A stretch of DNA of 64,000 nt, from assembly GCA_964016885.1 (NCBI GenBank), contig OZ024741.1, positions 408,022,001 through 408,086,000 on the forward strand, written 5' to 3'. The translations under genes were made by a program, and so were the position numbers. Shown here piece after piece: positions 2,058-36,599 of the stretch. The notes below the pieces were generated by a model, which saw only the letters and a program-made list of their open reading frames with translations, had not been told where the DNA came from and did no database searches. The stretch is from Eledone cirrhosa. Taxonomy: Eukaryota. Every line of letters begins with the position of its first letter. Position 1 is the stretch's first letter.

Positions 2058-2317
2058 CGAATTGAGGGATCATAGTCCTGATACTGCGCCGCGCATGGGG
2101 TTAGAATGTCTCAGGAAAGAATCACTGGGCAGATTTTACGGACAAGACCAAGCGGTGGGGGACCCAGGGTTGACTCCAGGCAAGATGGTTGGATAACATG
2201 GATGAGCTTGGCTGGTTTCGCTTGGAGATCCAGCCTGATCAGTTGGAGACGGTTGCTTCTGAGAGGACCTGCTGAAGGGAGTGTTTGAGGACTCTACACC
2301 CACGACGACCCTCTCAA

Positions 2318-2323
<6 letters not shown>
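2058..2323 (+). mobile_element. Decayed, 5'-truncated 3' end of an RTE-clade LINE (Rex3/Expander-like)
   Basis: Manual translation across stops and one frameshift gives RIEGS*..AHGVRMSQERITGQILRTRPSGGGPR / ARWLDNMDELGWFRLEIQPDQLETVASERTC*RECLRTLHPRRPSQE*. This matches the recalled RTE C-terminal pattern IERSQLRW.GH..RM...GRPR.RW.D...L.W.RL.I.P..L..VA.ER..W...L..L.PRP. The stop runs straight into a (TAA)n tail. Confidence 0.8.
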
Positions 2324-2380
<57 letters not shown>

Positions 2381-2419
2381 TAATAATAATAACAATAATA
2401 ATAATAATAATAATAATAA
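2319..2419. repeat. (TAA)~33 microsatellite, tail of the RTE fragment
   Basis: AAT/TAA run with two AAC interruptions, starting at the stop codon of the RTE ORF remnant. Confidence 0.95.
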
Positions 2420-2663
2420 CGCACGTGGTGGTAGAAGGTCATGAAATCGCTCCCGTAAGTTTTTGATTTTTAACATTTTTAAATCAATTGTGAAATAACA
2501 ATTCTTAGTACAAATGATGCATAAACCACCGAATCAAGTCTCATAAAATTTCGGATCCATATTATATTGTTATATCGCTCAAATATTCAATTTTGTATTA
2601 TATATTTTGTATTCAAAAAGAAAATGGTTATAAATGGAAGAAAACACCCTCTGTCTACACTAT

Positions 2664-2776
2664 ATAGAACAGCCAAATAACAGCAATTTCACCAACACCA
2701 GAAACTTGATACACCACCTACCCCATCACACTAAATATAACAGCCAGATAACGGCAATTTCACCACCACCACCACC
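2664..2776. repeat. Two diverged direct repeats (AACAGCCARATAACRGCAATTTCACCAMCACCA)
   Basis: Copies at about 2668-2700 and 2738-2770. Confidence 0.75.
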
Positions 2777-2934
2777 AATCCCAGCATCATAATAATAATT
2801 ACTATTATTATTGTCTCAAGTTTTAACAAAATGTTTAATTCCAATTTTACGGGAATATGTCAACACAATATATATTAAACATACGCGACACAAACTCATA
2901 GATACTACATATCACAAAACTCAGTAACGACAAC

Positions 2935-3022
2935 GCCACCGCCGCCACCACTCCATCCATCATTGCTACCACTATCCCATCACCGCCGCCACCACTCCTT
3001 CATTGCTACCACCACTATTCCC
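2935..3022. repeat. Two-copy tandem repeat of a CCA/CCG-rich unit
   Basis: CACCGCCGCCACCACTCC...TCATTGCTACCAC...TAT(T)CCC occurs twice in tandem. Confidence 0.75.
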
Positions 3023-3390
3023 CTGTTAACTTAAGAAAGGGGAAGGTGACGGTATCACTAGACAAGGGAGAGGCTAGCAAAAATATAAATAGATTGACTT
3101 AGTGACCTGGCCACCGGCCAAACGTCAACAACTATGGCACTGCTGGCTCCTCCCTTCCTCACCAACAATATAAAAAGCCCCAGCACCACCACCGACATAG
3201 CCAACAACAATAACAGGCAACTTCAGCAAAAAGTATATTATATTATTGTAATGCACTGGGTGATTGCTTGCCTTGTGCCTGGAGTGGAGACAATTATTAA
3301 TAATTTCATTCTTAAGCCACGCAATGCTCACATTAAGGAGCCACTCATGATAATAACAATTTAAAAAAAACAACAAAAAGAAAACCCCGT

Positions 3391-3508
3391 GACCAAGAAA
3401 TACCGGGATGGCGGCCGGCGGGGAATAGCCGTGTCTCTAGGGGAGAACGACCCCTCTAGTCTTGGTTGACACTCGTTCTAGAAGTGGTAACACGAAATGA
3501 TTACCCCT
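3391..3508 (+). ncRNA. Candidate HDV-like self-cleaving ribozyme or structured 5' UTR
   Basis: By-eye fold in HDV order: P1 GACCAA(3391-3396)/TTGGTT(3462-3467) with a G.U first pair; P2 AGGGGAGAAC(3439-3448)/GATTACCCCT(3499-3508), imperfect; P3 GAC/GTC closing the 7-nt loop CCCTCTA; P4 CACT/AGTG; CGAAA at 3493-3497. Not computed. Confidence 0.35.
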
Positions 3509-3544
3509 TGGCTGATAAGAATAAAACGCGACAAAATAAAGTAA

Positions 3545-6028
3545 ATGTCTAATGATAAAATCTCATACCGGATCGGCCGTCACCCGGGTAAAAAAGGGCC
3601 GCGTCCCTCAGAGAGGAACCAGACTGGGGTCGAAAAATCAGCTAATGGTTCAAACCTTCCCATCACTTCGGAGCTGGAGACCTCCCATAACCGGAATACT
3701 CCTACTGTTGGCCCTCCATGCTCACCACCAAGAAATCCAAAGAAAAAGAGAGAAAAATGGTCAAGGGAAGATAATAAAGAAGTCCTTGAGGTTTTCTACA
3801 CTGTCATGTACTACCCATCAAATACATCGAATACAGAACAGACATATATCAACTGGAAAAAGAAACATCCCGAAAACAGAGGCTATATTGACAGTAACAA
3901 ACTAGCCAATATACGAAGAAATATTGTAAGAAAAAAGTTACTAACTGATATAGAAATTGATCAGATCAAGCTATTAGCACAAAGTCAGCGAAGGGAAAAT
4001 GAAACATGTGTCAGTGAAAACGAGGTAAATTGTAACACTTCGAATCCCAGGGTTAGGGCGGAATCACTGGCAACAGAACAAATTAAAGAAAGGATCGAAA
4101 AAGTGGAGGGAGTGCATGCTCAAGATGAAACTACAAATGAAAATAATGAGATCGTAAATGATAAAGAAATGAATGAGAATGAACTTGCCAACTTGAAGGA
4201 TGAAATTATGATCGAATGGATGAAAATGAAAGAATCTGACATGGGGCAACGAGACACCCTCCCTAAGATCCAGAACTCCAAACAGAACCAAAAGATAATA
4301 CACAAGACTAACATCATTCTCAAAAACATTATCATCACAAACAAACTAAACATTACTGATTTGAATCATCTCTATTATGCATCGGGTAAAGTCACCACTC
4401 ACTTATGTGGAGTGAAGATGAAAAAACAAAGGAATTCCCACAAGAAATCTACTTGGCAAGAGAACATCAATCGCCAAATAAACCTTCTCCGATCTGACAT
4501 AGAAATTTTAACAAACTATAAAGTAGGTGAACATGTTAAACAAACTAAACTTAGAAAATTGAAAAGAAAGTACAGTATAAAATCAACAAGTGACATAGAC
4601 ATGCTGATAGAAATAATCAAGCAAAAAGTGTCGGCCAAAGCTGCTCGTATAAGGCGCTTTGAAAAACGATCTAGATTCTATAAGGACAATAATATGTTCA
4701 AAAACAACCAAAGAAACTTCTACAGAAAAATTGGTAAGTCAACAATAACTGCTAAATCAATACCACCCAAGGAGGAAGTGCAAGAATTCTGGGAAAAGAT
4801 CTGGGCCGAAGAAAAAGTTCATAACATACATGCCCCATGGATAGACAGACAAATGAAAGATACAGCTCACCTTGAGGAACAAATATGGGAAAATATAACA
4901 GTTGAACAGTTGCGCTTGGCTCTAAGAAAAACCAGCAAATGGAAATCCCCAGGAAAAGACAAAATACAAAATTTTTGGATAAATGCCTTCACAGAGTCTC
5001 ATGAGCTGTTAGCCCAACTTTACAATGAAATAGTTAAGGAGCCAGAAAAGATACCATCATGGCTAGTTAACGGCATTACATTCCTGCTTCCGAAGAATGA
5101 TGAGACAAACAATCCCAAACATTACAGACCGATAACTTGCTTGACCACAATGTATAAAATTTTAACATCAGTCCTAACTGAATACACATATGACCACCTG
5201 ATAACAAATGACCTATTTCCCATTGAGCAGAAAGGGTGTAAACGAGGCTCATATGGCTGTAAGGATCAGCTTTTGGTTAACAAAATGATACTGGAAGATT
5301 GTCATAGTAGACACAAAAATCTATCGATTGCTTGGATAGATTATAAAAAAGCATTCGATAGTTTGCCACACAGTTGGATTGAAAAATGTTTAGAGATTTT
5401 CAAAATATCCCCCGTTGTCAGGAGGTTTTTGTCATTCAGTATGAAGACATGGAAAACGACACTCCTTTTGAATAGTGAAACAAAATCACTGGAAGCTGGA
5501 GAAGTTAATATTAATTGTGGAATTTTTCAGGGTGACTCTTTATCACCGCTTTTATTCTGCATCGCACTTATACCATTAAGTAAAATCCTCAATGAAACAA
5601 AACATGGATATAAAGTCTATGACAAAACCATTAATCACTTGTTCTACATGGATGACCTGAAACTATTTGCAAAAAATGATGAACAATTGCAAGGGCTATT
5701 ATCCACTGTGGAGCAGTTCAGGGATGGCATTAAAATGGAGTTTGGACAAGATAAATGCGCAAAAGCAACGTTCACCAGAGGAAAGCTGCTGAAGAGTTCA
5801 GACATTAATCTTGATCGGGGGAACGTGATAAGAGAACTTGATCAAGAAAAAACTTACAAATATCTAGGTGTTTGTGAAGGAGACGGAATCAAGCACTCGA
5901 CAATGAGGGAAAGGATAAGGGAGGAATGTTACCGCAGAGTAAGAGCAATCTTAAGAACGGAATTGAATGCAAGGAATAGGATCGATGCCATAAACACGCT
6001 TGCCATACAAGTAGTAACCTACATTTAA
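3545..6028 (+). CDS. Reverse transcriptase ORF of the R4/Dong-like element (827 aa, C-terminally truncated, probably non-functional)
   Basis: N-terminal Myb-like region REKWSREDNKEVLEVFY...KLANIRRNIVRKKLLT. RT motifs: KWKSPGKDKIQNFW, YRPITCLTTMYKILT, EQKGCKRGSYGCKDQLL, AWIDYKKAFDSLPHSW, GIFQGDSLSPLLF, catalytic HLFYMDDLKLFA, EFGQDKC, YKYLG. No GGRGL, CCHC or PD-(D/E)xK endonuclease region follows. Confidence 0.9.
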   Translation: MSNDKISYRIGRHPGKKGPRPSERNQTGVEKSANGSNLPITSELETSHNRNTPTVGPPCSPPRNPKKKREKWSREDNKEVLEVFYTVMYYPSNTSNTEQTYINWKKKHPENRGYIDSNKLANIRRNIVRKKLLTDIEIDQIKLLAQSQRRENETCVSENEVNCNTSNPRVRAESLATEQIKERIEKVEGVHAQDETTNENNEIVNDKEMNENELANLKDEIMIEWMKMKESDMGQRDTLPKIQNSKQNQKIIHKTNIILKNIIITNKLNITDLNHLYYASGKVTTHLCGVKMKKQRNSHKKSTWQENINRQINLLRSDIEILTNYKVGEHVKQTKLRKLKRKYSIKSTSDIDMLIEIIKQKVSAKAARIRRFEKRSRFYKDNNMFKNNQRNFYRKIGKSTITAKSIPPKEEVQEFWEKIWAEEKVHNIHAPWIDRQMKDTAHLEEQIWENITVEQLRLALRKTSKWKSPGKDKIQNFWINAFTESHELLAQLYNEIVKEPEKIPSWLVNGITFLLPKNDETNNPKHYRPITCLTTMYKILTSVLTEYTYDHLITNDLFPIEQKGCKRGSYGCKDQLLVNKMILEDCHSRHKNLSIAWIDYKKAFDSLPHSWIEKCLEIFKISPVVRRFLSFSMKTWKTTLLLNSETKSLEAGEVNINCGIFQGDSLSPLLFCIALIPLSKILNETKHGYKVYDKTINHLFYMDDLKLFAKNDEQLQGLLSTVEQFRDGIKMEFGQDKCAKATFTRGKLLKSSDINLDRGNVIRELDQEKTYKYLGVCEGDGIKHSTMRERIREECYRRVRAILRTELNARNRIDAINTLAIQVVTYI

Positions 6029-9000
6029 AATGTCATCAACTGGTCAACAACAACGGTAATGATATAACATAGGTCATCACATAGCTGACTTCTAGTTACA
6101 ACAACAACGGTAATAATATAACATAGGTCATCACATAGCTGACTTCTGGTGACAACAACAACGGTAACAATATAACATAGGTCATCACATAGCTGACTTC
6201 TGGTGATAACAGCAACGGTAACAATATAACATAGGTCATCACATAGCTGACTTCTGGTGACAACAGCAACGGTAACAATATAACATAGGTCATCTCATAG
6301 ATGACTTCTGGTGTCAACAACAACAACAATATAACATACGTCATCACATACCTGACTTCTGGTGACAACAACAACGGTAACAATATAACATAGGACATCT
6401 CATAGCTGACATCTGGTGACAACAACAACAATATAACATAGGTCATCTCATAGCTGACTTCTGGTGACAACAACAACGGTAACAATATAACATAGGACAT
6501 CTCACAGCTGACTTCTGGTGACAACAACAACGGTAACAATATAACATAGGTCATCACATAGCTGACTTCTGGTGACAACAACAACAACTATATAACATAG
6601 GTCATCTCATAGCTGACTTCTAGTGACAACAACAACGGTAACAATATAACATAGGTCATCACATAGCTGACTTCTGGTGACAACAACAACAACAATATAA
6701 CATAGGACATCACATAGCTGACTACTGGTGACAACAACGGTAACAATATAACATAGGACATCACATAGCTGACTTCTGGTGACAACAACAACGGTAACAA
6801 TATAACATAGGTCATCTCATAGCTGACTTCTGGTGACAACAACAACGGTAACAATATAACATAGGTCATCACATAGCTGACTTCTGGTGACAACAACAAC
6901 GGTAACAATATAACATAGGTCATCACATAGCTGATTTCTGGTGACAACAACAACAACAATATAACATAGGTCATCTCATAGCTGACTTCTGGTGACAACA
7001 ACAACGGTAACAATATAACATAGGTCATCACATAACTGACTTCTGGTGACAACAATAACAATATAACATAGAACATCTCATAGCTGACTTCTGGTGAAAA
7101 CAACACCCTTAACAATATAACATAGGTCATCACATAGCTGACTTCTGGCGAAAACAACAACGGTAACAATATAACATAGGTCATCACATAGCTGACTTCT
7201 GGTGACAACAACAACAACAATATAACATAGGTCATCACATAGCTGACTTCTGGTGACAACAACAACGGTAACAATATAACATAGGTCATCACATAGCTGA
7301 CTTCTGGTGACAACAACAACAACAATATAGCATAGGTCATCTCACAGCTGACATCTGGTGACAACAACAAGAAAAACGATATAACATAGGTCATCTCATA
7401 GCTGACTTCTGGTGACAATAACAACGGTAACAATATAACATAGGTCATCACATAGCTGACTTCTGGTGACAACAACAACGGTAACAATATAACATAGGTC
7501 ATCACAAAGCTGACTTCTGGTGACAACAACAACGGTAACAATATAACTTAGGACATCTCATAGCTGACATCTGGTGACAACAACAGCGGTAACAATATAA
7601 CATAGGTCATCTCATAGCCGACTTCTGGTGACAACAGCAACGGTAACAATATAACATAGGTCATCACATAGCTGACTTCTGGTGACAACAGCAACGGTAA
7701 CAATATAACATAGGTCATCACATAGCTGACTTCTGGTGACAACAACAACGGTAACAATATAACATAGGACATCTCATAGTTGACTTCTGGTGACAACAAC
7801 AACGGTAACAATATAACATAGGTCATCACATAGCTGACTTCTGGTGACAACAGCAACGGTAACAATATAACATAGGTCATCACATAGCTGACTTCTGGTG
7901 ACAACAGCAACGGTAACAATATAACATAGGTCATATCATAGCTGACTTCTGGTGTCAACAACAACAACAATATAACATACGTCATCACATAGCTGACTTC
8001 TGTTGACAACAACAACGGTAACAATATAACATAGGACATCTCATAGCTGACTTCTGGTGACAACAACAACAACAATATAACATAGGTCATCTCATAGCTG
8101 ACTTCTGGTGACAACAACAACGGTAACAATATAACATAGGACATCTCACAGCTGATTCTGGTGACAACAACAACGGTAACAATATAACATAGTCATCACA
8201 TGGCTGACTTCTGGTGTCAGCAACAACAACAATATAACATAGGTCATCTCATAGCTGACTTCTGGTGACAACAACGGTAACAATATAACATAGGACATCT
8301 CATAGCTGACTTCTGGTGACAACAACAACAATAACAATATAACATAGGACATCTCATAGCTGACTTCTGGTGAAAACAACACCGGAAAAAATATAACATA
8401 GGTCATCACATAGCTGACTTCTGGTGATAACAACAACAACAATATAACATAGGTCATCTCACAGCTGACATCTGGTGACAACAACAAGAACAACAATATA
8501 ACATAGGTCATCTCATAGCTGACTTCTGGTGACAACCCTAACGGTAACAATATAACATAGGTCATCACATAGCTGACTTCTGGTGACAACAACAACGGTA
8601 ACAATATAACATAGGACATCTCATGGGTGACTTCTGGTGACAACAACAACAATATAACATAGGTCATATCATAGCTGACTTCTGGTGTCAACAACAGCAA
8701 CAATATAACATACGTCATCACATAGCTGACTTCTGGTGACAACAACAACGGTAATGATATAACATAGGACATCTCATAGCTGACTTCTGGTGACAACAAC
8801 AACGGTAACAATATAACATAGGTCATCTCATAGCTGACTTCTGGTGACAACAACAACGGTAACGATATAACATAGGACATCTCATAGCTGACTTCTGGTG
8901 ACAACAACAACAACAATATAACATAGTACATCTCATAGCTGACTTCTGGTGACAACAACAACGGTAACAATATAACATAGGTCATCTCATAACTGACTTC

Positions 9001-12000
9001 TGGTGACAACAACAACGGTAACAATATAACATAGGTCATCACATAGCTGACTTCTGGTGAAAACAACAACGGTAACAATATAACATAGGTCATCACATAG
9101 CTGACTTCTGGTGACAACAACAACAACAATATAAAAAAAGGTCATCACATAGCTGACTTCTGGTGACAACAACAACGGTAACAATATAACATAGGTCATC
9201 ACATAGCTGACTTCTGGTGACAACAACGGTAACAATATAACATAGGACATCACATAGCTGACTTCTGGTGACAACAACAACGGTAACAATATAACATAGG
9301 TCATCTCATAGCTGACTTCTGGTGACAACAACAACGGTAACAATATAACATAGGACATCTCATGGGTGACTTCTGGTGACAACAACAACAACAATATAAC
9401 ATAGGTCATATCATAGCTGACTTCTGGTGTCAACAACAACAACAATATAACATACGTCATCACATAGCTGACTTCTGGTGACAACAACAACGGTAACGAT
9501 ATAACACAGGTCATCACATAGCTGACTTCTGGTGACAACAATAACAATATAACATACGACATCACATAGCTGACTTCTGGTGAAAACAACAACGGTAACA
9601 ATATAACATAGGTCATCACATAGCTGACTTCTGGTGATAACAACAACAACAATATAACATAGGTCATCTCACAGCTGACATCTGGTGACAACAACAAGAA
9701 CAACAATATAACATAGGTCATTACATAGCTGACTTCTGGTGACAACAACAACAACAATATAACATAGGTCATCTCATAGCTGACTTCTGGTGACAACAAC
9801 AACGATAACAATATAACATAGGTCATTACATAGCTGACTTCTGGTGACAACAACAACAACAATATAACATAGGTCATCTCATAGCTGACTTCTGGTGACA
9901 ACAACAAGAACAGCAATATAACATAGGTCATCACATAGCTGACTTCTGGTGACAACAACAACGGTAACGATATAACATAGGACATCTCATAGCTGACTTC
10001 TGGTGACAACAACAACAACAATATAACATAGGTCGTCTCATAGCTGACTTCTGGTGACAACAACAACGGTAACAATATAACATAGGACATCTCATAGCTG
10101 ACTTCTGGTGACAACAACAACGGTAACAATATAACATAGGTCATCACATAGCTGAATTCTGGTGACAACAACAACGGTAACAATATAACATAGGTCATCA
10201 CAAAGCTGACTTCTGGTGACAACAGCAACGGTAACAATATAACATAGGTCATATCATAGCTGACTTCTGGTGTCAACAACAACAACAATATAACATACGT
10301 CATCACATAGCTGACTTCTGGTGACAACAACAACGGTAACGATACAACATAGGACATCACATAGCTGACGTCTGGTGAAAACAACAACGGTAACAATATA
10401 ATATAGGTCATCACATAGCTGACTTCTGGTGACAACAACAACAACAATATAACATAGGTCATCTCACAGCTGACACCTGGTGACAACAACAAGAACAACA
10501 ATATAACATAGGTCATCTCATAGCTGACTTCTGGTGACAACAACAACAATAATATAACATAGGTCGTCTCATAGCTGACTTCTGGTGACAACAACAACGG
10601 TAACAATATAACATAGGACATCTCATAGCTGACTTCTGGTGACAACAACAACAACAATATAACATAGGTCGTCTCATAGCTGACTTCTGGTGACAACAAC
10701 AACGGTAACAATATAACATAGGACATCTCATAGCTGACTTCTGGTGACAACAACAACGGTAACAATATAACATAGGTCATCACATAGCTGAATTCTGGTG
10801 ACAACAACAACGGTAACAATATAACATAGGTCATCACAAAGCTGACTTCTGGTGACAACAGCAACGGTAACAATATAACATAGGTCATATCATAGCTGAC
10901 TTCTGGTGTCAACAACAACAACAATATAACATACGTCATCACATAGCTGACTTCTGGTGACAACAACAACGGTAACGATACAACATAGGACATCACATAG
11001 CTGACGTCTGGTGAAAACAACAACGGTAACAATATAATATAGGTCAACACATAGCTGACTTCTGGTGACAACAACAACAACAATATAACATAGGTCATCT
11101 AACAGCTGACAACTGGTGAAAACAACAACGGTAACAATGTAACATAGGACATCTCATAGTTGACTTCTAGTGACAACAACAACGCTAACAATATAACATA
11201 GGTCATCACATAGCTGACTTCTGGTGACAACAACAACGGTAACAATATAACATAGGTCATCACATAGCTGACTTCTGGTGAAAACAACAACGGTAACGAT
11301 ATAACATAGGTCATCACATAGCTGACTTCTGGTGACAACAATAACAATATAACATAGGACATCTCATAGCTGACTTCTGGTGAAAACAACACCGGAAACA
11401 ATATAACATAGGTCATCACATAGCTGACTTCTGGTGATAACAACAACAACAATATAACATAGGTCATCTCACAGCTGACATCTGGTGACAACAACAAGAA
11501 CAACAATATGACATAGGTCATCACATAGCTGACTTCTGGTGACAACAACAACAACAATATAACATAGGTCATCTCATAGCTGACTTCTGGTGACAACAAC
11601 AACGGTAACAATATAACATAGGTCATCACATAGCTGACTTCTGGTGACAACAACAACAACAATATAACATAGGGCATCTCACAGCTGACACCTGGTGACA
11701 ACAACAAGAACAGCAATATAACATAGGTCATCACATAGCTGACTTCTGGTGACAACAACAACGGTAACGATATAACATAGGACATCTCATAGCTGACTTC
11801 TGGTGACAACAACAACAACAATATAACATAGGTCGTCACATAGCTGACTTCTGGTGACAACAACAACGGTAACAATATAACATAGGACATCTCATAGCTG
11901 ACTTCTGGTGACAACAACAACGGTAACAATATAACATAGGTCATCACATAGCTGACTTCTGTTGACAACAACAAGAACAATATAACATAGGTCATCACAT

Positions 12001-15000
12001 AGCTGACTTCTGGTGATAACAGCAACGGTAACAATATAACAAAGGTCATCACAAAGCTGACTTCTGGTGACAACAACAACGGTAACAATATAACATAGGT
12101 CATATCATAGCTGACTTCTGGTGTCAACAACAACAACAATATAACATACGTCATCACATAGCTGACTTCTGGTGACAACAACAACGGTAACGATACAACA
12201 TAGGACATCACATAGCTGACGTCTGGTGAAAACAACAACGGTAACAATATAACATAGGTCATCACATAGCTGACTTCTGGTGACAACAACAACAACAATA
12301 TAACATAGGTCATCTCACAGCTGACACCTGGTGACAACAACAAGAACAACAATATAACATAGGGCATCTCATAGCTGACTTCTGGTGAAAACAACAACGG
12401 TAACAATGTAACATAGGACATCTCATAGTTGACTTCTGGTGACAACAACAACGCTAACAATATAACATAGGTCATCACATAGCTGACTTCTGGTGACAAC
12501 AACAACGGTAACAATATAACATATGTCATCACATAGCTGACTTCTGGTGATAACAGCAACGGTAACAATATAACATAGGTCATCACATAGCTGACTTCTG
12601 GTGACAACAGCAACGGTAACAATATAACATAGGTCATCTCATAGCTGACTTCTGGTAACAACAACAATATAACATACGTCATCACATAGCTGACTTCTGG
12701 TGACAACAACAACGGTAATGATATAACATAGGACATCTCATAGCTGACTTCTGGTGACAACAACAACGGTAACAATATAACATAGGTCATCTCATAGCTG
12801 ACTTCTGGTGACAACAACAACGGTAACGATATAACATAGGACATCTCATAGCTGACTTCTGGTGACAACAACAACAACAATGTAACATAGTACATCTCAT
12901 AGCTGACTTCTGGTGACAACAACAACGGTAACGATATAACATACGACATCTCATAGCTGACTTCTGGTGACAACAACAACAACAATATAACATAAGTCAT
13001 CTCATAGCTGACTTCTGGTGACAACAACAACGGTAACAATATAACATAGGACATCTCACAGCTGACTTCTGGTGACAACAACAACGGTAACAATATAACA
13101 TAGGACATCTCATAGCTGACTTCTGCGGACAACAACAACGGTAACAATATAACATAGGTCATCTCATAGCTGACTTCTGGTGACAACAACAACGGTAACA
13201 ATATAACATAGGTCATCACATAGCTGAATTCTGGTGACAACAACAACGGTAACAATATAACATAGGTCATCACATAGCTGACTTCTGGTGACAACAACAA
13301 CGGTAACAATATAACATAGGTCATCACATAGCTGACTTCTGGTGACAACAACAACGGTAACAATATAACATAGGTCATTACATAGCTGACTTCTGGTGAC
13401 AACAACAACAACAATATAACATAGGACATCTCATAGCTGACTTCTGGTGAAAACAACAACGGTAACAATATAACATAGGTCATCACATAGCTGACGTCTG
13501 GTGAAAACAACAACGGTAACAATATAACATAGGTCATCACATAGCTGACATCTGGTGACAACAACAACAACAATATAACATAGGTCATCTCATAGCTGAC
13601 TTCTGGTGACAACAACAACGGTAACAATATAACATAGGTCATCACATAGCTGACTTCTGGTGACAACAACAACAACAATATAACATAGGACATCTCATAG
13701 CTGACTTCTGGTGAAAACAACAACGGTAACAATATAACATAGGTCATCACATAGCTGACTTCTGGTGAAAACAACAACGGCAACAATATAACATAGGTCA
13801 TCACATAGCTAACTTCTGGTGACAACAACAACAACAATATAACATAGGACATCTCATAGCTGACTTCTGGTGAAAACAACAACGGTAACAATATAACATA
13901 GGTCATCACATAGCTGACTTCTGGTGACAACAACAACAACAATATAACATAGGTCATCACATAGCTGACGTCTGATGAAAACAACAACGGTAACAATATA
14001 ACATAGGTCATCACATAGCTGACTTCTGGTGACAACAACAACAACAATATAACATAGGTCATCTCATAGCTGACTTCTGGTGACAACAACAACGGTAACA
14101 ATATAACATAGGTCATCACATAGCTGACTTCTGGTGACAACAACAACAACAATATAACATAGGTCATCTCACAGCTGACACCTGGTGACAACAACAAGAA
14201 CAACAATATAACATAGGTCATCACATAGCTGACTTCTGGTGACAACAACAACGGTAACAATATAACATAGGTCATCACATAGCTGACTTCTGGTGACAAC
14301 AACGGTAACAATATAACATAGGACATCACATAGCTGACTTCTGGTGACAACAACAACGGTAACAATATAACATAGGTCATCTCATAGCTGACTTCTGGTG
14401 ACAACAACAACAATATAACATAGGTCATATCATAGCTGACTTCTGGTGTCAACAAAAACAACAATATAACATACGTCATCACATAGCTGACTTCTGGTGA
14501 CAACAATAACAATATAACATAGGTCATCTCACAGCTGACATCTGGTGAAAACAACACCGGAAACAATATAACATAGGTCATCACATAGCTAACTTCTGGT
14601 GATAACAACAACAACAATATAACATAGGTCATCTCACAGCTGACATCTGGTGACAACAACAAGAACAACAATATAACATAGGTCATCACATAGCTGACTT
14701 CTGGTGACAACAACAACAACAATATAACATAGGTCATCTCATAGCTGACTTCTGGTGACAACAACAACGGTAACAATATAACATAGGTCATCACATAGCT
14801 GACTTCTGGTGACAACAACAACAACAATATAACATAGGTCATCTCACAGCTGACACCTGGTGACAACAACAAGAACAATATAACATACGTCATCACATAG
14901 CTGACTTCTGGTGACAACAACAACGGTAACGATATAACATAGGACATCTCATAGCTGACTTCTGGTGACAACAACAACAACAATATAACATAGATCGTCA

Positions 15001-17747
15001 CATAGCTGACTTCTGGTGACAACAACAACGGTAACAATATAACATAGGACATCTCATAGCTGACTTCTGGCGACAACAACAACGGTAACAATATAACATA
15101 GGTCATCTCATAGCTGACTTCTGGTGACAACAACAACGGTAACAATATAACATAGGTGATCACATATCTGAATTCTGGTGACAACAACAACGGTAACAAT
15201 ATAACATAGGTCATCACATAGCTGACTTCTGGTGACAACAACAACGGTAACAATATAACATAGGTCATCACATAGCTGACTTCTGGTGACAACAACAACG
15301 GTAACAATATAACATAGGTCATCACATAGCTGACTACTGGTGACAACAACAACAACAATATAACATAGGACATCTCATAGCTGACTTCTGGTGAAAACAA
15401 CAACGGTAACAATATAACATAGGTCATCACATAGCTGACGTCTGGTGAAAACAACAACGGTAACAATATAACATAGGTCATCACATAGCTGACATCTGGT
15501 GACAACAACAACAACAATATAACATAGGACATCTCATAGCTGACTTCTGGTGAAAACAACAACGGTAACAATATAACATAGGTCATCACATAGCTGACTT
15601 CTGGTGAAAACAACAACGGTAACAATATAACGTAGGTCATCACATATCTGAATTCTGGTGACAACAACAACGGTAACAATATAACATAGGTCATCACATA
15701 GCTGACTTCTGGTGACAACAACAACGGTAACAATATAACATAGGTCATCACATAGCTGACTTCTGGTGACAACAACAACGGTAACAATATATCATAGGTC
15801 ATCACATAGCTGACTTCTGGTGACAACAACAACAACAATATAACATAGGACATCTCATAGCTGACTTCTGGTGAAAACAACAACGGTAACAATATAACAT
15901 AGGTCATCACATAGCTGACGTCTGGTGAAAACAACAACGGTAACAATATAACATAGGTCATCACATAGCTGACATCTGGTGACAACAACAACAACAATAT
16001 AACATAGGACATCTCATAGCTGACTTCTGGTGAAAACAACAACGGTAACAATATAACATAGGTCATCACATAGCTAACTTCTGGTGACAACAACAACAAC
16101 AATATAACATAGGACATCTCATAGCTGACTTCTGGTGAAAACAACAACGGTAACAATATAACATAGGTCATCACATAGCTGACTTCTGGTGACAACAACA
16201 ACAACAATATAACATAGGTCATCACATAGCTGACGTCTGGTGAAAACAACAACGGTAACAATATAACATAGGTCATCACATAGCTGACTTCTGGTGACAA
16301 CAACAACAACAATATAACATAGGTCATCTCATAGCTGACTTCTGGTGACAACAACAACGGTAACAATATAACATAGGTCATCACATAGCTAACTTCTGGT
16401 GACAACAACAACAACAATATAACATAGGACATCTCATAGCTGACTTCTGGTGAAAACAACAACGGTAACAATATAACATAGGTCATCACATAGCTGACTT
16501 CTGGTGACAACAACAACAACAATATAACATAGGTCATCACATAGCTGACGTCTGGTGAAAACAACAACGGTAACAATATAACATAGGTCATCACATAGCT
16601 GACTTCTGGTGACAACAACAACAACAATATAACATAGGTCATATCACAGCTGACACCTGGTGACAACAACAAGAACAACAATATAACATAGGTCATCACA
16701 TAGCTGACTTCTGGTGACAACAACAACGGTAACAATATAACACAGGACATCTCATAGCTGACTTCTGGTGACAACAACAACGGTAACAATATAACATAGG
16801 TCATCTCATAGCTGACTTCTGGTGACAACAACAACGGTAACAATATAACATAGGTCATCACATAGCTGAATTCTGGTGACAACAACAACCGTAACAATAT
16901 AACATAGGTCATCACATAGCTGACTTCTGGTGACAACAACAACAACAATATAACATAGGTCATCACATAGCTGACTTTTGGTGACAACAACAACGGTAAC
17001 AATATAACATAGGTCATCACATAGATGACTTCTGGTGACAACAACAACGGTAACAATATAACATAGGTCATCACATAGCTGACTTCTGGTGACAACAACA
17101 ACAACAATATAACATAGGACATCTCATAGCTGACTTCTGGTGAAAACAACAACGGTAACAATATAACATAGGTCATCACATAGCTGACGTCTGGTGAAAA
17201 CAACAACGGTAACAATATAACATAGGTCATCACATAGCTGACATCTGGTGACAACAACAACAATATAACATAGGACATCTCATAGCTGACTTCTGGTGAA
17301 AACAACAACGGTAACAATATAACATAGGTCATCACATAGCTGACTTCTGGTGAAAACAACAACGGTAACAATATAACATAGGTCATCACATAGCTAACTT
17401 CTGGTGACAAAAACAACAACAATATAACATAGGACATCTCATAGCTGACTTCTGGTGAAAATAACAACGGTAACAATATAACATAGGTCATCACATAGCT
17501 GACTTCTGGTGACAACAACAACAACAATATAACATAGGTCATCACATAGCTGACGTCTGGTGAAAACAACAACGGTAACAATATAACATAGGTCATCACA
17601 TAGCTGACTTCTGGTGACAACAACAACAACAATATAACATAGGTCATCTCATAGCTGACTTCTGGTGACAACAACAACGGTAACAATATAACATAGGTCA
17701 TCACATAGCTGACTTCTGGTGACAACAACAACAACAATATAACATAG

Positions 17748-20700
17748 GTCATATCACAGCTGACACCTGGTGACAACAACAAGAACAACAATATAACATA
17801 GGTCATCACATAGCTGACTTCTGGTGACAACAACAACGGTAACAATATAACACAGGACATCTCATAGCTGACTTCTGGTGACAACAACAACGGTAACAAT
17901 ATAACATAGGTCATCTCATAGCTGACTTCTGGTGACAACAACAACGGTAACAATATAACATAGGTCATCACATAGCTGAATTCTGGTGACAACAACAACC
18001 GTAACAATATAACATAGGTCATCACATAGCTGACTTCTGGTGACAACAACAACAACAATATAACATAGGTCATCACATAGCTGACTTTTGGTGACAACAA
18101 CAACGGTAACAATATAACATAGGTCATCACATAGCTGACTTCTGGTGACAACAACAACAACATTATAACATAGGTCATCACATAGCTGACTTCTGGTGAC
18201 AACAACAACAACAATATAGCATAGGTCATCTCATAGCTGACATCTGGTGACAACAACATCGGTAACAATATAACATAGGTCATCACATAGCTGACTTCTG
18301 GTGACAACAACAACAACAATATAGCATAGGTCATCTCATAGCTGACTTCTGGTGACAACAACAACGGTAACAATATAACATAGGTCATCTCATAGATGAC
18401 TTCTGGTGACAACAACAACAACAATATAACATATGTCATCACATAGCTGACATCTGGTGACAAGAGCAATGGTAAAAATATAACATAGGACATCTCATAG
18501 TTGACTTCTGGTGACAACAACAACGGTAACAATATAACATATGTCATCACATAGCTGACTTCTGGTGACAACAACAACGGTAACAATATAACATAGGTCA
18601 TCACATAGCTGACTTCTGGTGACAACAACAACGGTAACAACATAACATAGGTCATCTCATAGCTGACTTCTGGTGAAAACAACGACAACAATATAACATA
18701 GGTCATCACATAGCTGACTTCTGGTGACAAAAACAAAGGTAACAACATAACATAGGTCATCTCATAGCTGACTTCTGGTGACAACAACAACGGTAACAAT
18801 ATAACATAGGTCATCTCATAGCTGACTTCTGGTGACAACAACAACGTTAACAATATAACATAGGTCATCACTTAGCTGACTTCTGGTGACAACAACGGTA
18901 ACAATATAACATAGGTCATCTCATAGCTAACTTCTGGTGACAAGAATAACAACAATATAACACAGGTCATCACATAGCTGACTTCTGGTGACAACAACAA
19001 CGGTAACAATATAACATAGGTCATCTCATAGCTAACTTCTGGTGACAACAACAACAACAATATAACATAGGTCATCACATAGCTGACTTCTGGTGACAAC
19101 AACAACAACAATATAACATAGGTCATCACATAGCTGACTTCTCGTGACAACAACAACAACAATATAGCATAGGTCATCTCATAGCTGACTTCTGGTGACA
19201 ACAACAACGGTAACAATATAACATAGGTCATCTCATAGCTGACTTCTGGTGACAACAACAACGGTAACAATATAACATAGGTCATCACATAGCTGACTTC
19301 TGGTGACAACAACAACAACAATATAGCATAGGTCATCTCATAGCTGACTTCTGGTGACAACAACAACGGTAACAATATAACATAGGTCATCTCATAGATG
19401 ACTTCTGGTGACAACAACAACAACAATATAGCATAGGTTATCTCATAGCTGACGTCTGGTGACAACAACAACAACTATATAGCATAGGTCATCTTATAGC
19501 TGACTTCTGGTGACAACAACAACGGTAACAATATAACATAGGTCATCACATAGCTGACTTCTGGTGACAACAATAACGGTAACAATATAACATAGGTCAT
19601 CTCATAGCTGACTTCTGGTGACAACAACAACGGTAACAATATAAAATAGGTCATCACCTCGATGACTTCTGGTGACAACAACAACGACAATATAGCATAG
19701 GTCATCTCATAGCTGACTTATCGTGACAACAACAACAATAATATAACATAGGTCATCACATAGCTGACTTCTGGTGACAACAACAACAACAATATAGCAT
19801 AGGTCATCTCATAGGTGACTTCTGGTGACAACAACAACGACAATATAGCATAGGTCATCTAATAGCTGACTTCTCGTGACAATAACAACGGTAACAATAT
19901 AACATAGGTCATCACATAGCTGACTTCTGGTGACAACAACAACAACAATATAACATAGGTCATCACATAGCTGACTTCTGGTGACAACAACAACAACAAT
20001 ATAGCATAGGTCATCTCATAGGTGACTTCTGGTGACAACAACAACGACAATATAGCATAGGTCATCTAATAGCTGACTTCTCGTGACAATAACAACGGTA
20101 ACAATATAACATAGGTCATCTCATAGCTGCCTTCTGGTGACAACAACAACGGTAACAATATAAAATAGGTCATCTCATAGCTGACTTCTGGTGACAACAA
20201 CAACGGTAACAATATAAAATAGGTCATCACCTCGATGACTTCTGGTGACAACAACAACAACAATATAACATAGGTAATCTCATAGCTGACTTCTGGTGAC
20301 AACAACAACAACAATATAGCATAGGTCATCTCTAAGTTGACTTCTGGTGACAACAACAACGGTAACAATATATCATATGTTATCACATAGCTGACATCTG
20401 GTGACAACAACAACAACAATATAACATAGGTCATCTCATAGCTGACTTCTGGTGACAACAACAACAACAATATAACATAGGTCATATCACAGCTGACACC
20501 TGGTGACAACAACAAGAACAACAATATAACATAGGTCATCACATAGCTGACTTCTGGTGACAACAACAACGGTAACAATATAACACAGGACATCTCATAG
20601 CTGACTTCTGGTGACAACAACAACGGTAACAATATAACATAGGTCATCTCATAGCTGACTTCTGGTGACAACAACAACGGTAACAATATAACATAGGTCA

Positions 20701-22460
20701 TCACATAGCTGAATTCTGGTGACAACAACAACCGTAACAATATAACATAGGTCATCACATAGCTGACTTCTGGTGACAACAACAACAACAATATAACATA
20801 GGTCATCACATAGCTGACTTTTGGTGACAACAACAACGGTAACAATATAACATAGGTCATCACATAGCTGACTTCTGGTGACAACAACAACAACATTATA
20901 ACATAGGTCATCACATAGCTGACTTCTGGTGACAACAACAACAACAATATAGCATAGGTCATCTCATAGCTGACATCTGGTGACAACAACATCGGTAACA
21001 ATATAACATAGGTCATCACATAGCTGACTTCTGGTGACAACAACAACAACAATATAGCATAGGTCATCTCATAGCTGACTTCTGGTGACAACAACAACGG
21101 TAACAATATAACATAGGTCATCTCATAGATGACTTCTGGTGACAACAACAACAACAATATAACATATGTCATCACATAGCTGACATCTGGTGACAAGAGC
21201 AATGGTAAAAATATAACATAGGACATCTCATAGTTGACTTCTGGTGACAACAACAACGGTAACAATATAACATATGTCATCACATAGCTGACTTCTGGTG
21301 ACAACAACAACGGTAACAATATAACATAGGTCATCACATAGCTGACTTCTGGTGACAACAACAACGGTAACAACATAACATAGGTCATCTCATAGCTGAC
21401 TTCTGGTGAAAACAACGACAACAATATAACATAGGTCATCACATAGCTGACTTCTGGTGACAAAAACAAAGGTAACAACATAACATAGGTCATCTCATAG
21501 CTGACTTCTGGTGACAACAACAACGGTAACAATATAACATAGGTCATCTCATAGCTGACTTCTGGTGACAACAACAACGTTAACAATATAACATAGGTCA
21601 TCACTTAGCTGACTTCTGGTGACAACAACGGTAACAATATAACATAGGTCATCTCATAGCTAACTTCTGGTGACAAGAATAACAACAATATAACACAGGT
21701 CATGACATAGCTGACTTCTGGTGACAACAACAACGGTAACAATATAACATAGGTCATCTCATAGCTAACTTCTGGTGACAACAACAACAACAATATAACA
21801 TAGGTCATCACATAGCTGACTTCTGGTGACAACAACAACAACAATATAACATAGGTCATCACATAGCTGACTTCTCGTGACAACAACAACAACAATATAG
21901 CATAGGTCATCTCATAGCTGACTTCTGGTGACAACAACAACGGTAACAATATAACATAGGTCATCTCATAGCTGACTTCTGGTGACAACAACAACGGTAA
22001 CAATATAACATAGGTCATCACATAGCTGACTTCTGGTGACAACAACAACAACAATATAGCATAGGTCATCTCATAGCTGACTTCTGGTGACAACAACAAC
22101 GGTAACAATATAACATAGGTCATCTCATAGATGACTTCTGGTGACAACAACAACAACAATATAGCATAGGTTATCTCATAGCTGACGTCTGGTGACAACA
22201 ACAACAACTATATAGCATAGGTCATCTTATAGCTGACTTCTGGTGACAACAACAACGGTAACAATATAAAATAGGTCATCACATAGCTGACTTCTGGTGA
22301 CAACAATAACGGTAACAATATAACATAGGTCATCTCATAGCTGACTTCTGGTGACAACAACAACGGTAACAATATAAAATAGGTCATCACCTCGATGACT
22401 TCTGGTGACAACAACAACGACAATATAGCATAGGTCATCTCATAGCTGACTTATCGTGAC
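17748..22460. repeat. Higher-order duplication, offset 2733 bp
   Basis: Identical or near-identical ORF-track strings at 18872/21605 and 19475/22208. The marker GTCATATCACAGCTGACACC occurs at 17748 and 20481. Confidence 0.9.
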
Positions 22461-25400
22461 AATAACAACGGTAACAATATAACATAGGTCATCTCATAGC
22501 TGACTTCTGGTGACAACAACAACAACAATATAACATAGGTCATCACATAGCTGACTTCTGGTGACAACAACAACAACAATATAACATAGGTCATCACATA
22601 GCTGACTTCTGGTGACAACAACAACAACAATATAGCATAGGTCATCTCATAGGTGACTTCTGGTGACAACAACAACGACAATATAGCATAGGTCATCTAA
22701 TAGCTGACTTCTCGTGACAATAACAACGGTAACAATATAACATAGGTCATCTCATAGCTGCCTTCTGGTGACAACAACAACGGTAACAATATAAAATAGG
22801 TCATCTCATAGCTGACTTCTGGTGACAACAACAACGGTAACAATATAAAATAGGTCATCACCTCGATGACTTCTGGTGACAACAACAATATAACATAGGT
22901 AATCTCATAGCTGACTTCTGGTGACAACAACAACAACAATATAGCATAGGTCATCTCATAGCTGACTTCTGGTGACAACAACAACGGTAACAATATAACA
23001 TAGGTCATCTCATAGCTGACTTCTGGTGACAACAACAACGGTAACAATATAAAATAGGTCATCACCTCGATGACTTCTGGTGACAACAACAACGACAATA
23101 TAGCATAGGTCATCTCATAGCTGACTTCTCGTGACAATAACAACGGTAACAATATAACATAGGTCATCACATAGCTGACTTCTGGTGACAACAACAACAA
23201 TATAACATAGGTCATCTCATAGCTGACTTCTGGTGACAACAACAACGGTAACAATATAACATAGGTCATCTCATAGCTGACTTCTGGTGACAACAACAAC
23301 GGTAACAATATAAAATAGGTCATCACCTCGATGACTTCTGGTGACAACAACAACGACAATATAGCATAGGTCATCTCATAGCTGACTTCTCGTGACAATA
23401 ACAACGGTAACAATATAACATAGGTCATCACATAGCTGACTTCTGGTGACAACAACAACAATATAACATAGGTCATCAAATAGCTGACTTCTGGTGACAA
23501 CAACAACAACAATATAACATAGGTCATCACATAGCTGACTTCTGGTGACAACAATAACAACAATATAGCATAGGTCATCTCATAGCTGACTTCTGGTGAC
23601 AACAACAACGGTAACAATATAACATAGGTCATCACATAGCTGATTTCTGGTGACAACAACAACAAGAATATAGCATAGGTCATCACATAGCTGACTTCTG
23701 GTGACAACAACAACAAGAATATAGCATAGGTCATCTCATAGATGACTTCTGGTGACAACAACAAAAAGAATATAGCATAGGTCATCTCATAGATGACTTC
23801 TGGTGACAACAACAACAAGAATATAGCATAGGTCATCTCATAGATGACTTCTGGTGACAACAACAACAAGAATATAGCATAGGTCATCTCATAGATGACT
23901 TCTGGTGACAACAACAACAACAATATAGCATAGGTCATCTCATAGCTGACGTCTGGTGACAACAACAACAACTATATAGCATAGGTCATCTCATAGCTGA
24001 CTTCTGGTGACAACAACAACGGTAACAATATAAAATAGGTCATCACCTCGATGACTTCTGGTGACAACAACAACAACAATATAACATAGGTCATCACATA
24101 GCTGACTTCTGGTGACAACAACAACAACAATATAACATAGGTCATCTCATAGCTGACTTCTCGTGACAATAACAACGGTAACAATATAACATAGGTCATC
24201 TCATAGCTGACTTCTGGTGACAACAACAACAACAATATAACATAGGTCATCACATAGCTGACTTCTGGTGACAACAACAACAACAATATAACATAGGTCA
24301 TCACATAGCTGACTTCTGGTGACAACAACAACAACAATATAGCATAGGTCATCTCATAGGTGACTTCTGGTGACAACAACAACGGTAACAATATAACATA
24401 GGTCATCTCATAGCTGACTTCTGGTGACAACAACAACGGTAACAATATAACATAGGTCATCACATAGCTGACTTCTGGTGACAACAACAACAACAATATA
24501 GCATAGGTCATCTCATAGCTGATTCTGGTGACAACAACAACGGTAACAATATAACATAGGTCATCTCATAGATGACTTCTGGTGACAACAACAACAACAA
24601 TATAGCATAGGTCATCTCATAGCTGACGTCTGGTGACAACAACAACAACTATATAGCATAGGTCATCTTATAGCTGACTTCTAGTGACAACAACAACGGT
24701 AACAATATAACATAGGTCATCACATAGCTGACTTCTGGTGACAACAACAACGGTAACAATATAACATAGGTCATTTCATAGCTGACTTCTGGTGACACCA
24801 TTAACGGTAACAATATAACATAGGTCATCTCATAGCTGACTTCTGGTGACAACAACAACGGTAACAATATAACATAGGTCATCTCATAGCTGACTTCTGG
24901 TGACAACAACAACGGTAACAATATAACATAGGTCATCTCATAGCTGACTTCTGGTGACAACAACAACGGTAACAATATAACATAGGTCATCTCATAGCTG
25001 ACTTCTGCTGACAACAACAACGGTAACAATATAACATAGGTCATCTCATAGCTGACTTCTGGTGACAACAACAACGGTAACAATATAACATAGGTCATCT
25101 CATAGCTGACTTCTGATGACAACAACAACGGTAACAATATAAAATAGGTCATCACCTCGATGACTTCTGGTGACAACAACAACGACAATATAGCATAGGT
25201 CATCTCATAGCTGACTTCTCGTGACAATAACAACGGTAACAATATAACATAGGTCATCTCATAGCTGACTTCTGGTGACAACAACAACGGTAACAATATA
25301 ACATAGGTCATCACATAGCTGACTTCTGGTGACAACAACAACGGTAACAATATAACATAGGTCATTTCATAGCTGACTTCTGGTGACAACAACAACGGTA

Positions 25401-34400: not shown

Positions 34401-36599
34401 CAACAACGGTAACAATATAACATAGGTCATCTCATAGCTGACTTCTGGTGACAACAACAACGGTAACAATATAACATAGGTGATCACATAGCTGACTTCT
34501 GGTGACAACAAGAGCGGTAACAATATAACGTAGGTCATCACATAGCTGACTTCTGGTGACAACAACGGTAACAATATAACATAGGTCATCACATAACTGA
34601 CTTCTGCTGACAACAACAACAACAATATAACATAGGTCATCACATAGCTGACTTCTGGTGAAAACAACAACAACAATATAGCATAGGTCATCTCATAGCT
34701 GACTTCTCGTGACAACAACAACAATATAGCATAGGTCATCTCATAGCTGACTTCTGGTGACAACAACAACGGTAACAATATAACATAAGTCATCTCATAG
34801 CTGACTTCTGGTGACAACAACAACGGTAACAATATAACATAGGTCATCACATAGCTGACTTCTGGTGACAACAACAACGGTAACAATATAACATAGGTCA
34901 TCACATAGCTGACTTCTGGTGACAACAACAACAACAATATAACATAGGTCATCTCATAGCTGACTTCTGGTGACAACAACAAAGGTAACAATATAAAATA
35001 GGTCATCACCTCGATGACTTCTGGTGACAACAACAACGACAATATAGCATAGGTCATCTCATAGCTGACTTCTGGTGACAACAACAACAACAATATAGCA
35101 TAGGTCATCTCATAGCTGACTTCTGGTGACAACAACAACGGTAACAATATAACATAGGTCATCTCATAGCTGACTTCTGGTTACAACAACAACGGTAACA
35201 ATATAACATAGGTCATCACATAGCTGACTTCTGGTGACAACAACAAAGGTAACAACATAACATAGGTCATCTCATAGCTGACTTCTGGTGACAACAACAA
35301 CGGTAACAATATAACATAGGTCATCTCATAGCTGAATTCTGGTGACAACAACGGTAACAATATAACATAGGTCATCACATAGCTGACTTCTGGTGACAAC
35401 AACAACAACAATATAGCATAAGTCATCTCATAGCTGACTTCTGGTGACAACAACAACGGTAACAATATAACAGAGGACATCACATAGCTGACTTCTGGTG
35501 ACAACAGCAACGTTAACAATATAACATAGGTCATCACATAGCTGACTTCTGGTGACAACAACAACGGTAACAATATAACATAGGTCATCACTTTGCTGAC
35601 TTCTGGTGACAACAACAACGGTAACAATATAACATAGGTCATCACATAGCTGACTTCTGGTGACAACAACGGTAACAATATAACATAGCTCATCTCATAG
35701 CTGACTTCTGGTGACAACAACAACGGTAACAATATAACATAGGTCATCACATAGCTGACTTCTGGTGGCAACAACAACGGTAACAATATAACATAGGTCA
35801 TCTCATAGCTGACTTCTGGTGAAAACAACGACAACAATATAACATAGGTCATCACATAGCTGACTTCTGGTGACAACAACAAAGGTAACAACATAACATA
35901 GGTCATCTCATAGCTGACTTATGGTGACAACAACAACGGTAACAATATAACATAGGTCATCTCATAGCTGAATTCTGGTGACAACAACGGTAACAATATA
36001 ACATAGGTCATCACATAGCTGACTTCTGGTGACAACAACAACAACAATATAGCATAAGTCATCTCATAGCTGACTTCTGGTGACAACAACAACGGTAACA
36101 ATATAACATAGGTCATCTCATAGATGACTTCTGGTGACAACAACAACAACAATATAGCATAGGTCTTCTCATAGCTGACTTCTGGTGACAACAACAACGG
36201 TAACAATATAACATAGGTCATCACATAGCTGACTTCTGGTGACAACAAGAGCGGTAACAATATAACGTAGGTCATCACATAGCTGACTTCTGGTGACAAC
36301 AACAACGGTAACAATATAACATAGGTCATCACATAACTGACTTCTGCTGACAACAACAACAACAATATAACATAGGTCATCACATAGCTGACTTCTGGTG
36401 AAAACAACAACAACAATATAGCATAGGTCATCTCATAGCTGACTTCTCGTGACAACAACAACAATATAGCATAGGTCATCTCATAGCTGACTTCTGGTGA
36501 CAACAACAACGGTAACAATATAACATAAGTCATCTCATAGCTGACTTCTGGTGACAACAACAACGGTAACAATATAACATAGGTCATCACATAGCTGAC

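What the first reader, a model, noticed from the sequence alone, without database searches (positions are those of the whole stretch)
5990..6100. R4/Dong retrotransposon is cut at its 3' side and fused seamlessly to a satellite of at least 58 kb
Seen: element-like coding sequence continues in frame to NVINW (6029-6043) and switches with no spacer into satellite monomers. The remaining C-terminus, 3' UTR and tail are missing, while the 5' end appears complete. Known: target-primed reverse transcription yields 5'-truncated copies with intact 3' ends, so a simple insertion into the satellite does not explain this junction. Inference: the array either arose or expanded inside the element, with the missing half lying beyond the array, or a deletion or break repair joined the two.
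Basis: partly seen in the sequence, partly recalled or inferred. Interest (0 to 1): 0.75.

Follow-up and report, generated by a model that had tools for sequence, protein, structure and literature searches.

The report
Satellite edge clipped a young retrotransposon
A young jumping-gene copy ends abruptly against a 62,000-base block of unrelated tandem repeats and its missing tail is not on the far side, so a later deletion likely fused the two; a second, unrelated case elsewhere in the genome suggests this is likely recurring wear at repeat-block edges rather than a new mechanism.

Summary
The junction is in the assembly, with corrections. The R4/Dong copy spans about 2419-6047, is 5'-complete, about 1% from its sisters, has a stop codon (6026-6028) before NVINW and lacks its last 1,290 nt. 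The 54/51-bp array is 61.9 kb and occurs only here (1139 of 1139 genome-wide pattern hits). Its monomer is not derived from this Dong family, and no Dong 3' part follows within 214 kb. So 'array grew inside the element, other half beyond' fails; 'deletion or break repair joined them' holds. The join carries 3 nt of exact and a longer gapped microhomology. It is not unique as a class: 5 of 80 unbiased Dong copies do not reach their 3' end, and one (L168) is fused without spacer to a different, 229-kb, 56-bp array, again with gapped microhomology and no continuation. Best reading: normal insertion into an (AAT)n tract near an array, then microhomology-guided loss of the array-facing end. Reads across the junction could not be tested usefully. 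The scan noted satellites born from R4/Dong pieces elsewhere in this genome; this locus is not of that kind. Modest interest.

The parts
2058..2318 (+). Older short interspersed element (82-87% to its best copies) whose 3' end looks RTE-like (label recalled, not tested); its tail is the Dong target
   Evidence: 6,501 candidates, matches start at about 2058
2319..2418 (+). (AAT)n tract, 33 units: 5' side of the Dong insertion site
   Evidence: sisters also begin behind (AAT)n
2419..3544 (+). Dong 5' untranslated region, about 9 nt short of the first base of full-length sisters
3545..6028 (+). Dong ORF, 827 aa, N-terminus and reverse transcriptase (Pfam RVT_1, E 7e-28), ended by a premature TAA at 6026-6028
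   Evidence: intact sister ORFs are 1,213 and 1,216 aa
5722..6047 (+). Last 326 nt of the element, holding 8 of its 16 private substitutions
6029..6047 (+). Last element bases (NVINWS codons); break at element nt 3,651 of 4,944
6040..6047 (+). Junction microhomology: CAA exact (6045-6047); CTGGT--CAA against monomer CTGGTGACAA with a 2-nt gap
6045..64000 (+). Single-locus 54/51-bp satellite; continues to G000:C2:408089925 (61.9 kb in all); first monomer is complete, no degenerate run-in

Best explanation
A full-length Dong copy likely inserted normally into the (AAT)n tail of an older element close to a probably pre-existing satellite array, and a later deletion, likely guided by a few matching bases, removed its last 1,290 nt, its tail and any DNA in between, leaving the element joined directly to a monomer. 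Shown: the 5'-complete start in an (AAT)n tract, the break at 6047, the microhomology, the absence of the 3' part behind the array, the single-locus monomer unrelated to this Dong family, and a second case with another array. Inferred: the order (insertion, then deletion), that the array was there first, and the repair route (end joining or template switching at an unstable array edge). The size of the deletion beyond 1,290 nt cannot be known from one assembly; it may have been nearly zero, as at L153, where an intact Dong tail abuts an array.
For: Canonical 5' junction in (AAT)n, as Dong targets (TAA)n (PMC7998251, passages). Exact overlap 3 nt (P 0.021) and gapped overlap (P 0.009). No 3' part in 214 kb downstream. 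Monomer not from this Dong family and nowhere else in the assembly (262 of 262, 1139 of 1139, 1150 of 1150). Deletions are common in this family: 12 deletions of 20 nt or more in 11 of 36 sisters, 8 of 12 with 2-4 nt overlap; 5 of 80 unbiased copies and 2 of 37 top-hit copies (L080, L083) fail to reach the 3' end. L168: 98% copy cut at nt 4,422 and fused to an unrelated 56-bp array of about 229 kb, gapped overlap P 0.016, no continuation within 30 kb of the far end. L153: full-length copy from (AAT)n to a 4-unit tail directly against a 59-bp array, no monomers upstream, a likely pre-deletion state. The left edge starts with a whole monomer, while the neighbouring 40-bp array fades out at both ends. 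The first 20 monomers differ by 5.9% pairwise against 0.64% (0.37-1.04) private change in the Dong copy. The region is array-rich: 156-kb and 15-kb arrays follow, and 6 of 11 probes over the next 6 Mb fall in arrays.
Against: No pre-event allele or ortholog is available: the upstream flank is single-copy and the genome has no relatives in the tool. The order is not proven: edge monomers are 0.63-1.08% from their nearest neighbours, equal to the Dong copy's age within error, and a faster clock in or near the array (2.45% in the element's last 326 nt) would erase the age gap. The far edge lies about 10 nt from the AAT tail of a reversed short element, the same element that follows 3 of 34 Dong tails, which a replacement model would predict; such tail ends occur only 9 times in 60 kb nearby. 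Microhomology was scored against representative monomers, not the lost one. The second case is n = 1.
Confidence: 0.7

Rival explanations
1. Replacement: a break inside the Dong copy was repaired with filler or captured DNA that replaced its 3' 1.29 kb and then grew into the 62-kb array between the element and its original 3' neighbour.
For: The monomer has no source elsewhere in the assembly. The far flank is a short AAT run plus a reversed short element, as behind 3 of 34 Dong tails. Edge monomers are about as old as the Dong copy. 8 of 16 private substitutions cluster in the last 326 nt (binomial P 4e-4, window chosen after the fact), as error-prone repair might leave.
Against: No trace of Dong 3' UTR or long tail at the far end. 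The short AAT run is intrinsic to that element: 0 of its 24 closest copies have a Dong end upstream and several adjoin AAC/AAT-rich DNA; it is about 9% diverged, so the monomer can have been born beside it long before. Monomer diversity at the junction edge is 5.9%. At L168 the far flank is unrelated DNA. 2 of 33 sisters show an equal substitution cluster somewhere and L168 shows no marked cluster (12 in 2,016 nt).
Confidence: 0.12
2. Assembly or read chimera joining a Dong copy to the array.
For: No contig of 8 public runs spans the junction (uninformative, see Tried and rejected). Both sides are repeats.
Against: No N at the join; the array shows a true edge gradient (nearest-neighbour distance 1.08% in the first 20 monomers, 0.18% inside, 0.78% in the last 31); non-random microhomology at this and at the L168 junction; upstream flank single-copy.
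Confidence: 0.07
3. Endonuclease-independent insertion: a broken array end annealed to the middle of Dong RNA through CAA, primed reverse transcription to the RNA's 5' end, and the copy bridged a deletion, so it never had a 3' end.
For: Such 3'-truncated, tailless, deletion-associated insertions are described for human L1 (21 loci, 18 with target deletions; PMC1920257, passages). Microhomology sits at the would-be priming end.
Against: The 5' end lies in a 33-unit (AAT)n tract, the normal target; the same holds at L168. A break-bridging copy has no reason to land there twice.
Confidence: 0.06
4. One reading: the array arose or expanded inside the element and the missing half lies beyond it.
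For: Other notes of this scan report such cases elsewhere in this genome (unchecked).
Against: No continuation in 214 kb; monomer unrelated to the break site under three scoring schemes (16-22% of 488 windows score as well).
Confidence: 0.02

Closest known systems
Dong (R4 clade, RLE non-LTR retrotransposons), PMC7998251 (passages read)
   Same: Single ORF with RT, CCHC and PD-D/E-K endonuclease in intact sisters; (TAA)n target and tail.
   Different: This copy has lost CCHC, endonuclease, 3' UTR and tail and has a premature stop; it is dead.
Transposon/tandem-array junctions of rye pSc200 and pSc250, PMC4857426 (passages read)
   Same: Elements joined to monomers directly or through 1-10 nt, attributed to end joining and microhomology-driven repair.
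   Different: Rye junctions mostly involve LTR ends of LTR elements at multi-locus families; here a LINE is cut inside its ORF at a single-locus array.
Microhomeology at human rearrangement join-points, PMC6902434 (passages read)
   Same: 5 bp or more, at least 70% identity, gap up to 2 nt, often with exact microhomology at one end: fits CTGGT--CAA.
   Different: Described for copy gains at one human locus; no repair pathway is tested here.
Non-classical (endonuclease-independent) L1 insertion, PMC1920257 (passages read)
   Same: 3'-truncated young LINE without tail.
   Different: Those loci lack endonuclease hallmarks and were verified against pre-insertion alleles; here the 5' side is the normal target and no pre-insertion allele is available.
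Retrotransposon-derived satellites (Ogre-derived FabTR repeats of Lathyrus sativus, PMC7004042, passages read)
   Same: Array next to retrotransposon coding sequence.
   Different: There the arrays are embedded in and derived from the elements at many loci; here the monomer is unrelated to the element, the element does not resume and there is one locus.

Membership tests
R4/Dong non-LTR retrotransposon | Single long ORF with reverse transcriptase | tested here: met
   RVT_1 E 7e-28; 1,213- and 1,216-aa ORFs in 2 of 37 sisters
R4/Dong non-LTR retrotransposon | C-terminal CCHC knuckle and restriction-like endonuclease (PD..D..K) | tested here: met
   Motif patterns (recalled) found in intact sisters L059 and L068; absent from this copy by truncation
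R4/Dong non-LTR retrotransposon | (TAA)n target and tail | tested here: met
   5' flank (AAT)33 here; TAA tails in 34 of 37 sisters; target as in PMC7998251
R4/Dong non-LTR retrotransposon | N-terminal Myb/SANT-like domain; RT tree placement in the R4 clade | not tested
   Pfam gave only RVT_1; no tree built
Retrotransposon-derived satellite | Monomer homologous to the host element | tested here: not met
   Junction windows rank in the top 16-22% of 488 only; best scores anywhere are short chance matches. Older, unrelated elements were tested only by patterns with 2-3 mismatches
Retrotransposon-derived satellite | Element resumes in register beyond the array | tested here: not met
   No 3' part in 214 kb
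Retrotransposon-derived satellite | Same array in other copies of the element | tested here: not met
   All genome-wide pattern hits lie in this array
Non-classical (endonuclease-independent) LINE insertion | 3' truncation without tail | tested here: met
Non-classical (endonuclease-independent) LINE insertion | Site departs from the endonuclease target | tested here: not met
   5' side is a 33-unit (AAT)n tract
Non-classical (endonuclease-independent) LINE insertion | Pre-insertion allele shows boundaries matching the insert | not testable with these tools
   Flank single-copy; no related genome held
Post-insertion microhomology-joined deletion | Short (imperfect) homology between the two joined ends | tested here: met
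   P 0.021 exact, 0.009 gapped; L168 0.016 gapped
Post-insertion microhomology-joined deletion | Undeleted allele exists or existed | not testable with these tools
   One assembly only

The most novel reading that the evidence does not exclude
Large single-locus satellites in this genome actively eat into their flanks by template switching on short imperfect matches, and young Dong copies, which land in the (AAT)n tracts beside arrays, are dated rulers of that erosion: 1 of 80 sampled copies implies about 25 (95% range 1-137) such clipped, array-fused copies among the 2,023 that carry the probe, enough to measure rate, polarity and junction signature of array-edge loss in one genome.
Probability: 0.3. 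Interest if true: 0.5.

Novelty: new member of a known kind. Interest (0 to 1): 0.24.

Why it matters
As a single locus it is a dead retrotransposon clipped by a deletion at a repeat edge, a known kind of junction. It shows that a 5'-complete, 3'-less LINE at an array border need not mean that the array was born in the element. Its only wider value is as one of probably tens of dated junctions that could show how satellite edges remove neighbouring DNA.

Tried and rejected
Read support: 8 public runs laid, all as Logan contigs. None spans the junction, but these contigs drop single-copy variants of this family: the A at 6009 stands in 6 of 11 sister loci of G000 yet has about 3 of 236,184 depth in X4. 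So no conclusion; whether any run is the assembled individual is unknown. Lack of monomer cover in X7, X8, X9 is likewise no evidence. Monomer derived from Dong: an eye-catching match (GTAAC…GTCATCA…CTGGT…CAA) was not better than 16-22% of other windows. Target-site duplication of the older upstream element at the far edge: none seen. Empty site or paralog of the flanks: upstream flank single-copy; far flank is other interspersed repeats. Chimera of two Dong subfamilies near the break: no diagnostic sites for this copy's subgroup lie there, so untestable. An early estimate of 1.7% edge divergence was inflated by 2 indel-shifted monomers; corrected values are 0.63% (98 of first 100) and 1.08% (first 20). 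One search's first junction position and one search failed by script errors, redone. Rows set aside: 4 of 37 sisters left out of the ORF alignment for large indels or truncation; L050 runs off its locus through a 2-kb insertion and was not classed; 4 of the first 84 pattern hits were skipped as already sampled, 16 of the 100 listed were not fetched, and all 80 sampled lie on C1. Of the 5 unbiased copies that do not reach the 3' end, L198 lacks only about 95 nt, L237 joins what looks like the end of a related element and L239 joins another Dong piece, so these may be deletions or chimeras rather than plain truncations. Literature: six searches listed no paper on Dong/satellite junctions; the library is partial; no supplements were read.
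Full report
Place and anatomy. The window is G000:C2:408022001-408086000, 8.2 Mb from the end of a 416-Mb contig in a 3.0-Gb animal genome. An 827-aa ORF at 3545-6028 carries a reverse transcriptase domain. Sister copies are 95-98% identical over window 2419-6047 and are about 4.93-4.94 kb long; 2 of 37 have intact ORFs of 1,213 and 1,216 aa with YMDD, GGRGL, a CCHC knuckle and a PD..D..K endonuclease motif. They start behind (AAT)n and end in TAA tails, as described for Dong (PMC7998251, passages). An exact 24-mer of the RT region occurs 2,023 times. So the element is a young, abundant Dong family, and this copy starts about 9 nt short of the first base, in the 33-unit (AAT)n tail of an older short element.

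The junction. The frame is broken by TAA at 6026-6028 before NVINW. Identity to sisters ends at 6047, element nt 3,651 of 4,944; 1,290 nt are missing. The last three element bases, CAA, are also the first three of a complete monomer. Exact overlap of 3 nt or more arises in 2.1% of 100,000 random pairs; the gapped match CTGGT--CAA / CTGGTGACAA is reached by 0.9% of 3,000. It fits the definition of microhomeology in PMC6902434 (passages).

The array. It holds 1,161 monomers between anchors, mostly 54 and 51 bp, and ends at C2:408089925, 61.9 kb in all. It is the only array of this monomer in the assembly: genome-wide counts equal local counts for three patterns (262 of 262, 1139 of 1139 at 3 mismatches, 1150 of 1150 at 2). 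No monomer lies in the 20 kb upstream of the window. The far edge is followed after about 10 nt by the AAT tail of a reversed short element (about 9% from its best copies), another interspersed repeat, a 40-bp array of 156 kb and a 64-bp array of 15 kb. No Dong 3' sequence was found in 214 kb of contiguous DNA (blastn on all of it; tblastn on 120 kb and the probes; the other 94 kb are pure 40-bp array). The monomer does not come from this Dong family: windows around the break score no better than 16-22% of 488 element windows.

Ages. The copy differs from the family majority at 25 of 2,503 sites, 16 privately (0.64%, 0.37-1.04). Edge monomers are 1.08% (first 20) and 0.63% (98 of the first 100) from their nearest neighbours, against 0.18% inside and 0.78% in the last 31: both ends are true, frozen edges of about the element's age, which speaks against a fresh cut into the interior and against a misjoin. 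The first 20 monomers differ by 5.9% pairwise, so under equal clocks the array had diversified before the insertion. Clocks may not be equal: 8 of the 16 private changes lie in the last 326 nt (P 4e-4, window chosen after the fact; 2 of 33 sisters reach 8 in some 330-nt window). The order of events is therefore inferred, not shown.

Is it unique? Among 37 top-hit sisters, 34 reach the 3' end, L083 lacks 58 nt, L050 runs off its locus, and L080 is 5'-complete but cut at nt 3,456 with no resumption in about 29 kb. 11 of 36 carry internal deletions of 20 nt or more, 8 of 12 with 2-4 nt overlap. In an unbiased sample of 80 copies on C1, 72 are whole at the 3' side, 3 resume after an internal deletion and 5 do not reach the end. 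One of these, L168, repeats the window's anatomy with other parts: a 98% copy that starts behind a (TAA)n tail, is cut at nt 4,422 and joins without spacer a different 56-bp array (3,924 hits, all on one strand, span about 229 kb), with gapped overlap (P 0.016) and no continuation within 30 kb of the far end. L153 is a full-length copy whose 4-unit tail abuts a 59-bp array with no monomers upstream, a likely picture of the state before such a deletion. 1 of 80 scales to about 25 (1-137) array-fused clipped copies among 2,023.

Mechanism. Most likely (0.70): normal target-primed insertion in an (AAT)n tract near an array, then loss of the array-facing end by a deletion joined on a few matching bases. 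Direct element-to-monomer joins attributed to end joining and microhomology-driven repair are known from rye (PMC4857426, passages). Rivals: replacement of the 3' end by filler that grew into the array (0.12; the far-flank short element follows 3 of 34 Dong tails, but its AAT run is intrinsic and 0 of 24 of its closest copies follow a Dong end); misassembly (0.07); endonuclease-independent insertion as for human L1 (0.06; PMC1920257, passages; but both clipped copies start in the normal target); growth inside the element (0.02).

Read check. Eight runs, all contigs, gave no junction-spanning piece, but they also lack single-copy variants known from G000, so they cannot decide.

Relation to earlier notes. 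The scan has unchecked notes on satellites born from R4/Dong pieces elsewhere in this genome and on Dong, Tx1 and a short element sharing AAT repeats; nothing near this place and nothing for the words. The first set prompted the monomer-origin test, which failed here.

Verdict. Real in the assembly, explained by a known kind of rearrangement, recurrent with unrelated arrays. New member of a known kind; interest 0.24. The bolder reading, that array edges erode their flanks and Dong copies date the process, is open (0.3) and testable by a genome-wide census.

Noticed in passing
L168, L201, L204 (G000:C1:45785866-46017700, minus strand): Second young Dong copy cut at nt 4,422 and fused without spacer to an unrelated 56-bp array of about 229 kb; no continuation at the far end.
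   Followed up: yes
L153, L205-L213 (G000:C1:35196666-35290000, minus strand): Full-length Dong whose 4-unit TAA tail abuts a 59-bp array; the array is interrupted twice by what looks like another LINE family (Tx1-like by recall) and followed by 22-bp and 30-bp arrays.
   Followed up: partly
L080, L103 (G000:C1:113394661): 5'-complete Dong cut at nt 3,456 and joined, through a short duplicated AT-rich stretch, to sequence that looks like a Penelope-type GIY-YIG end (label recalled); Dong does not resume in about 29 kb.
   Followed up: partly
window 5722-6047: 8 of the copy's 16 private substitutions lie in the 326 nt before the junction (2.45% against 0.37%); 4 of the 8 are C>A or G>T. Not clearly repeated at L168.
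   Followed up: partly
G000:C28:114444330-114459595 (L047, L048): Head-to-tail array of at least 4 Dong copies with 4,955-bp period and 99.9-100% identity, a very recent tandem amplification.
   Followed up: no
G000:C22:8267554-8269607: An 89-bp tandem array of about 20 units built from the end of an interspersed repeat and starting right behind a copy of it: an element-derived minisatellite.
   Followed up: no
G000:C2:408090731-408262945 and probes to 414 Mb: Chain of unrelated large arrays (40 bp, 156 kb; 64 bp, 15 kb; 53, 49, 25/23, 61 bp); the same 49-bp unit appears at 408.7 Mb and, reversed, at 412.0 Mb.
   Followed up: no
L229, L230 (G000:C1:91.0 and 91.9 Mb): Two Dong copies with the same 5' truncation point (nt 574) and near-identical 5' flank: a segmental duplication or a transduction.
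   Followed up: no
Contigs of runs under five different organism labels hold this Dong family with few differences (for example 9 in 348 nt in X8); close relatives, label differences, cross-talk or transfer cannot be told apart.
   Followed up: no
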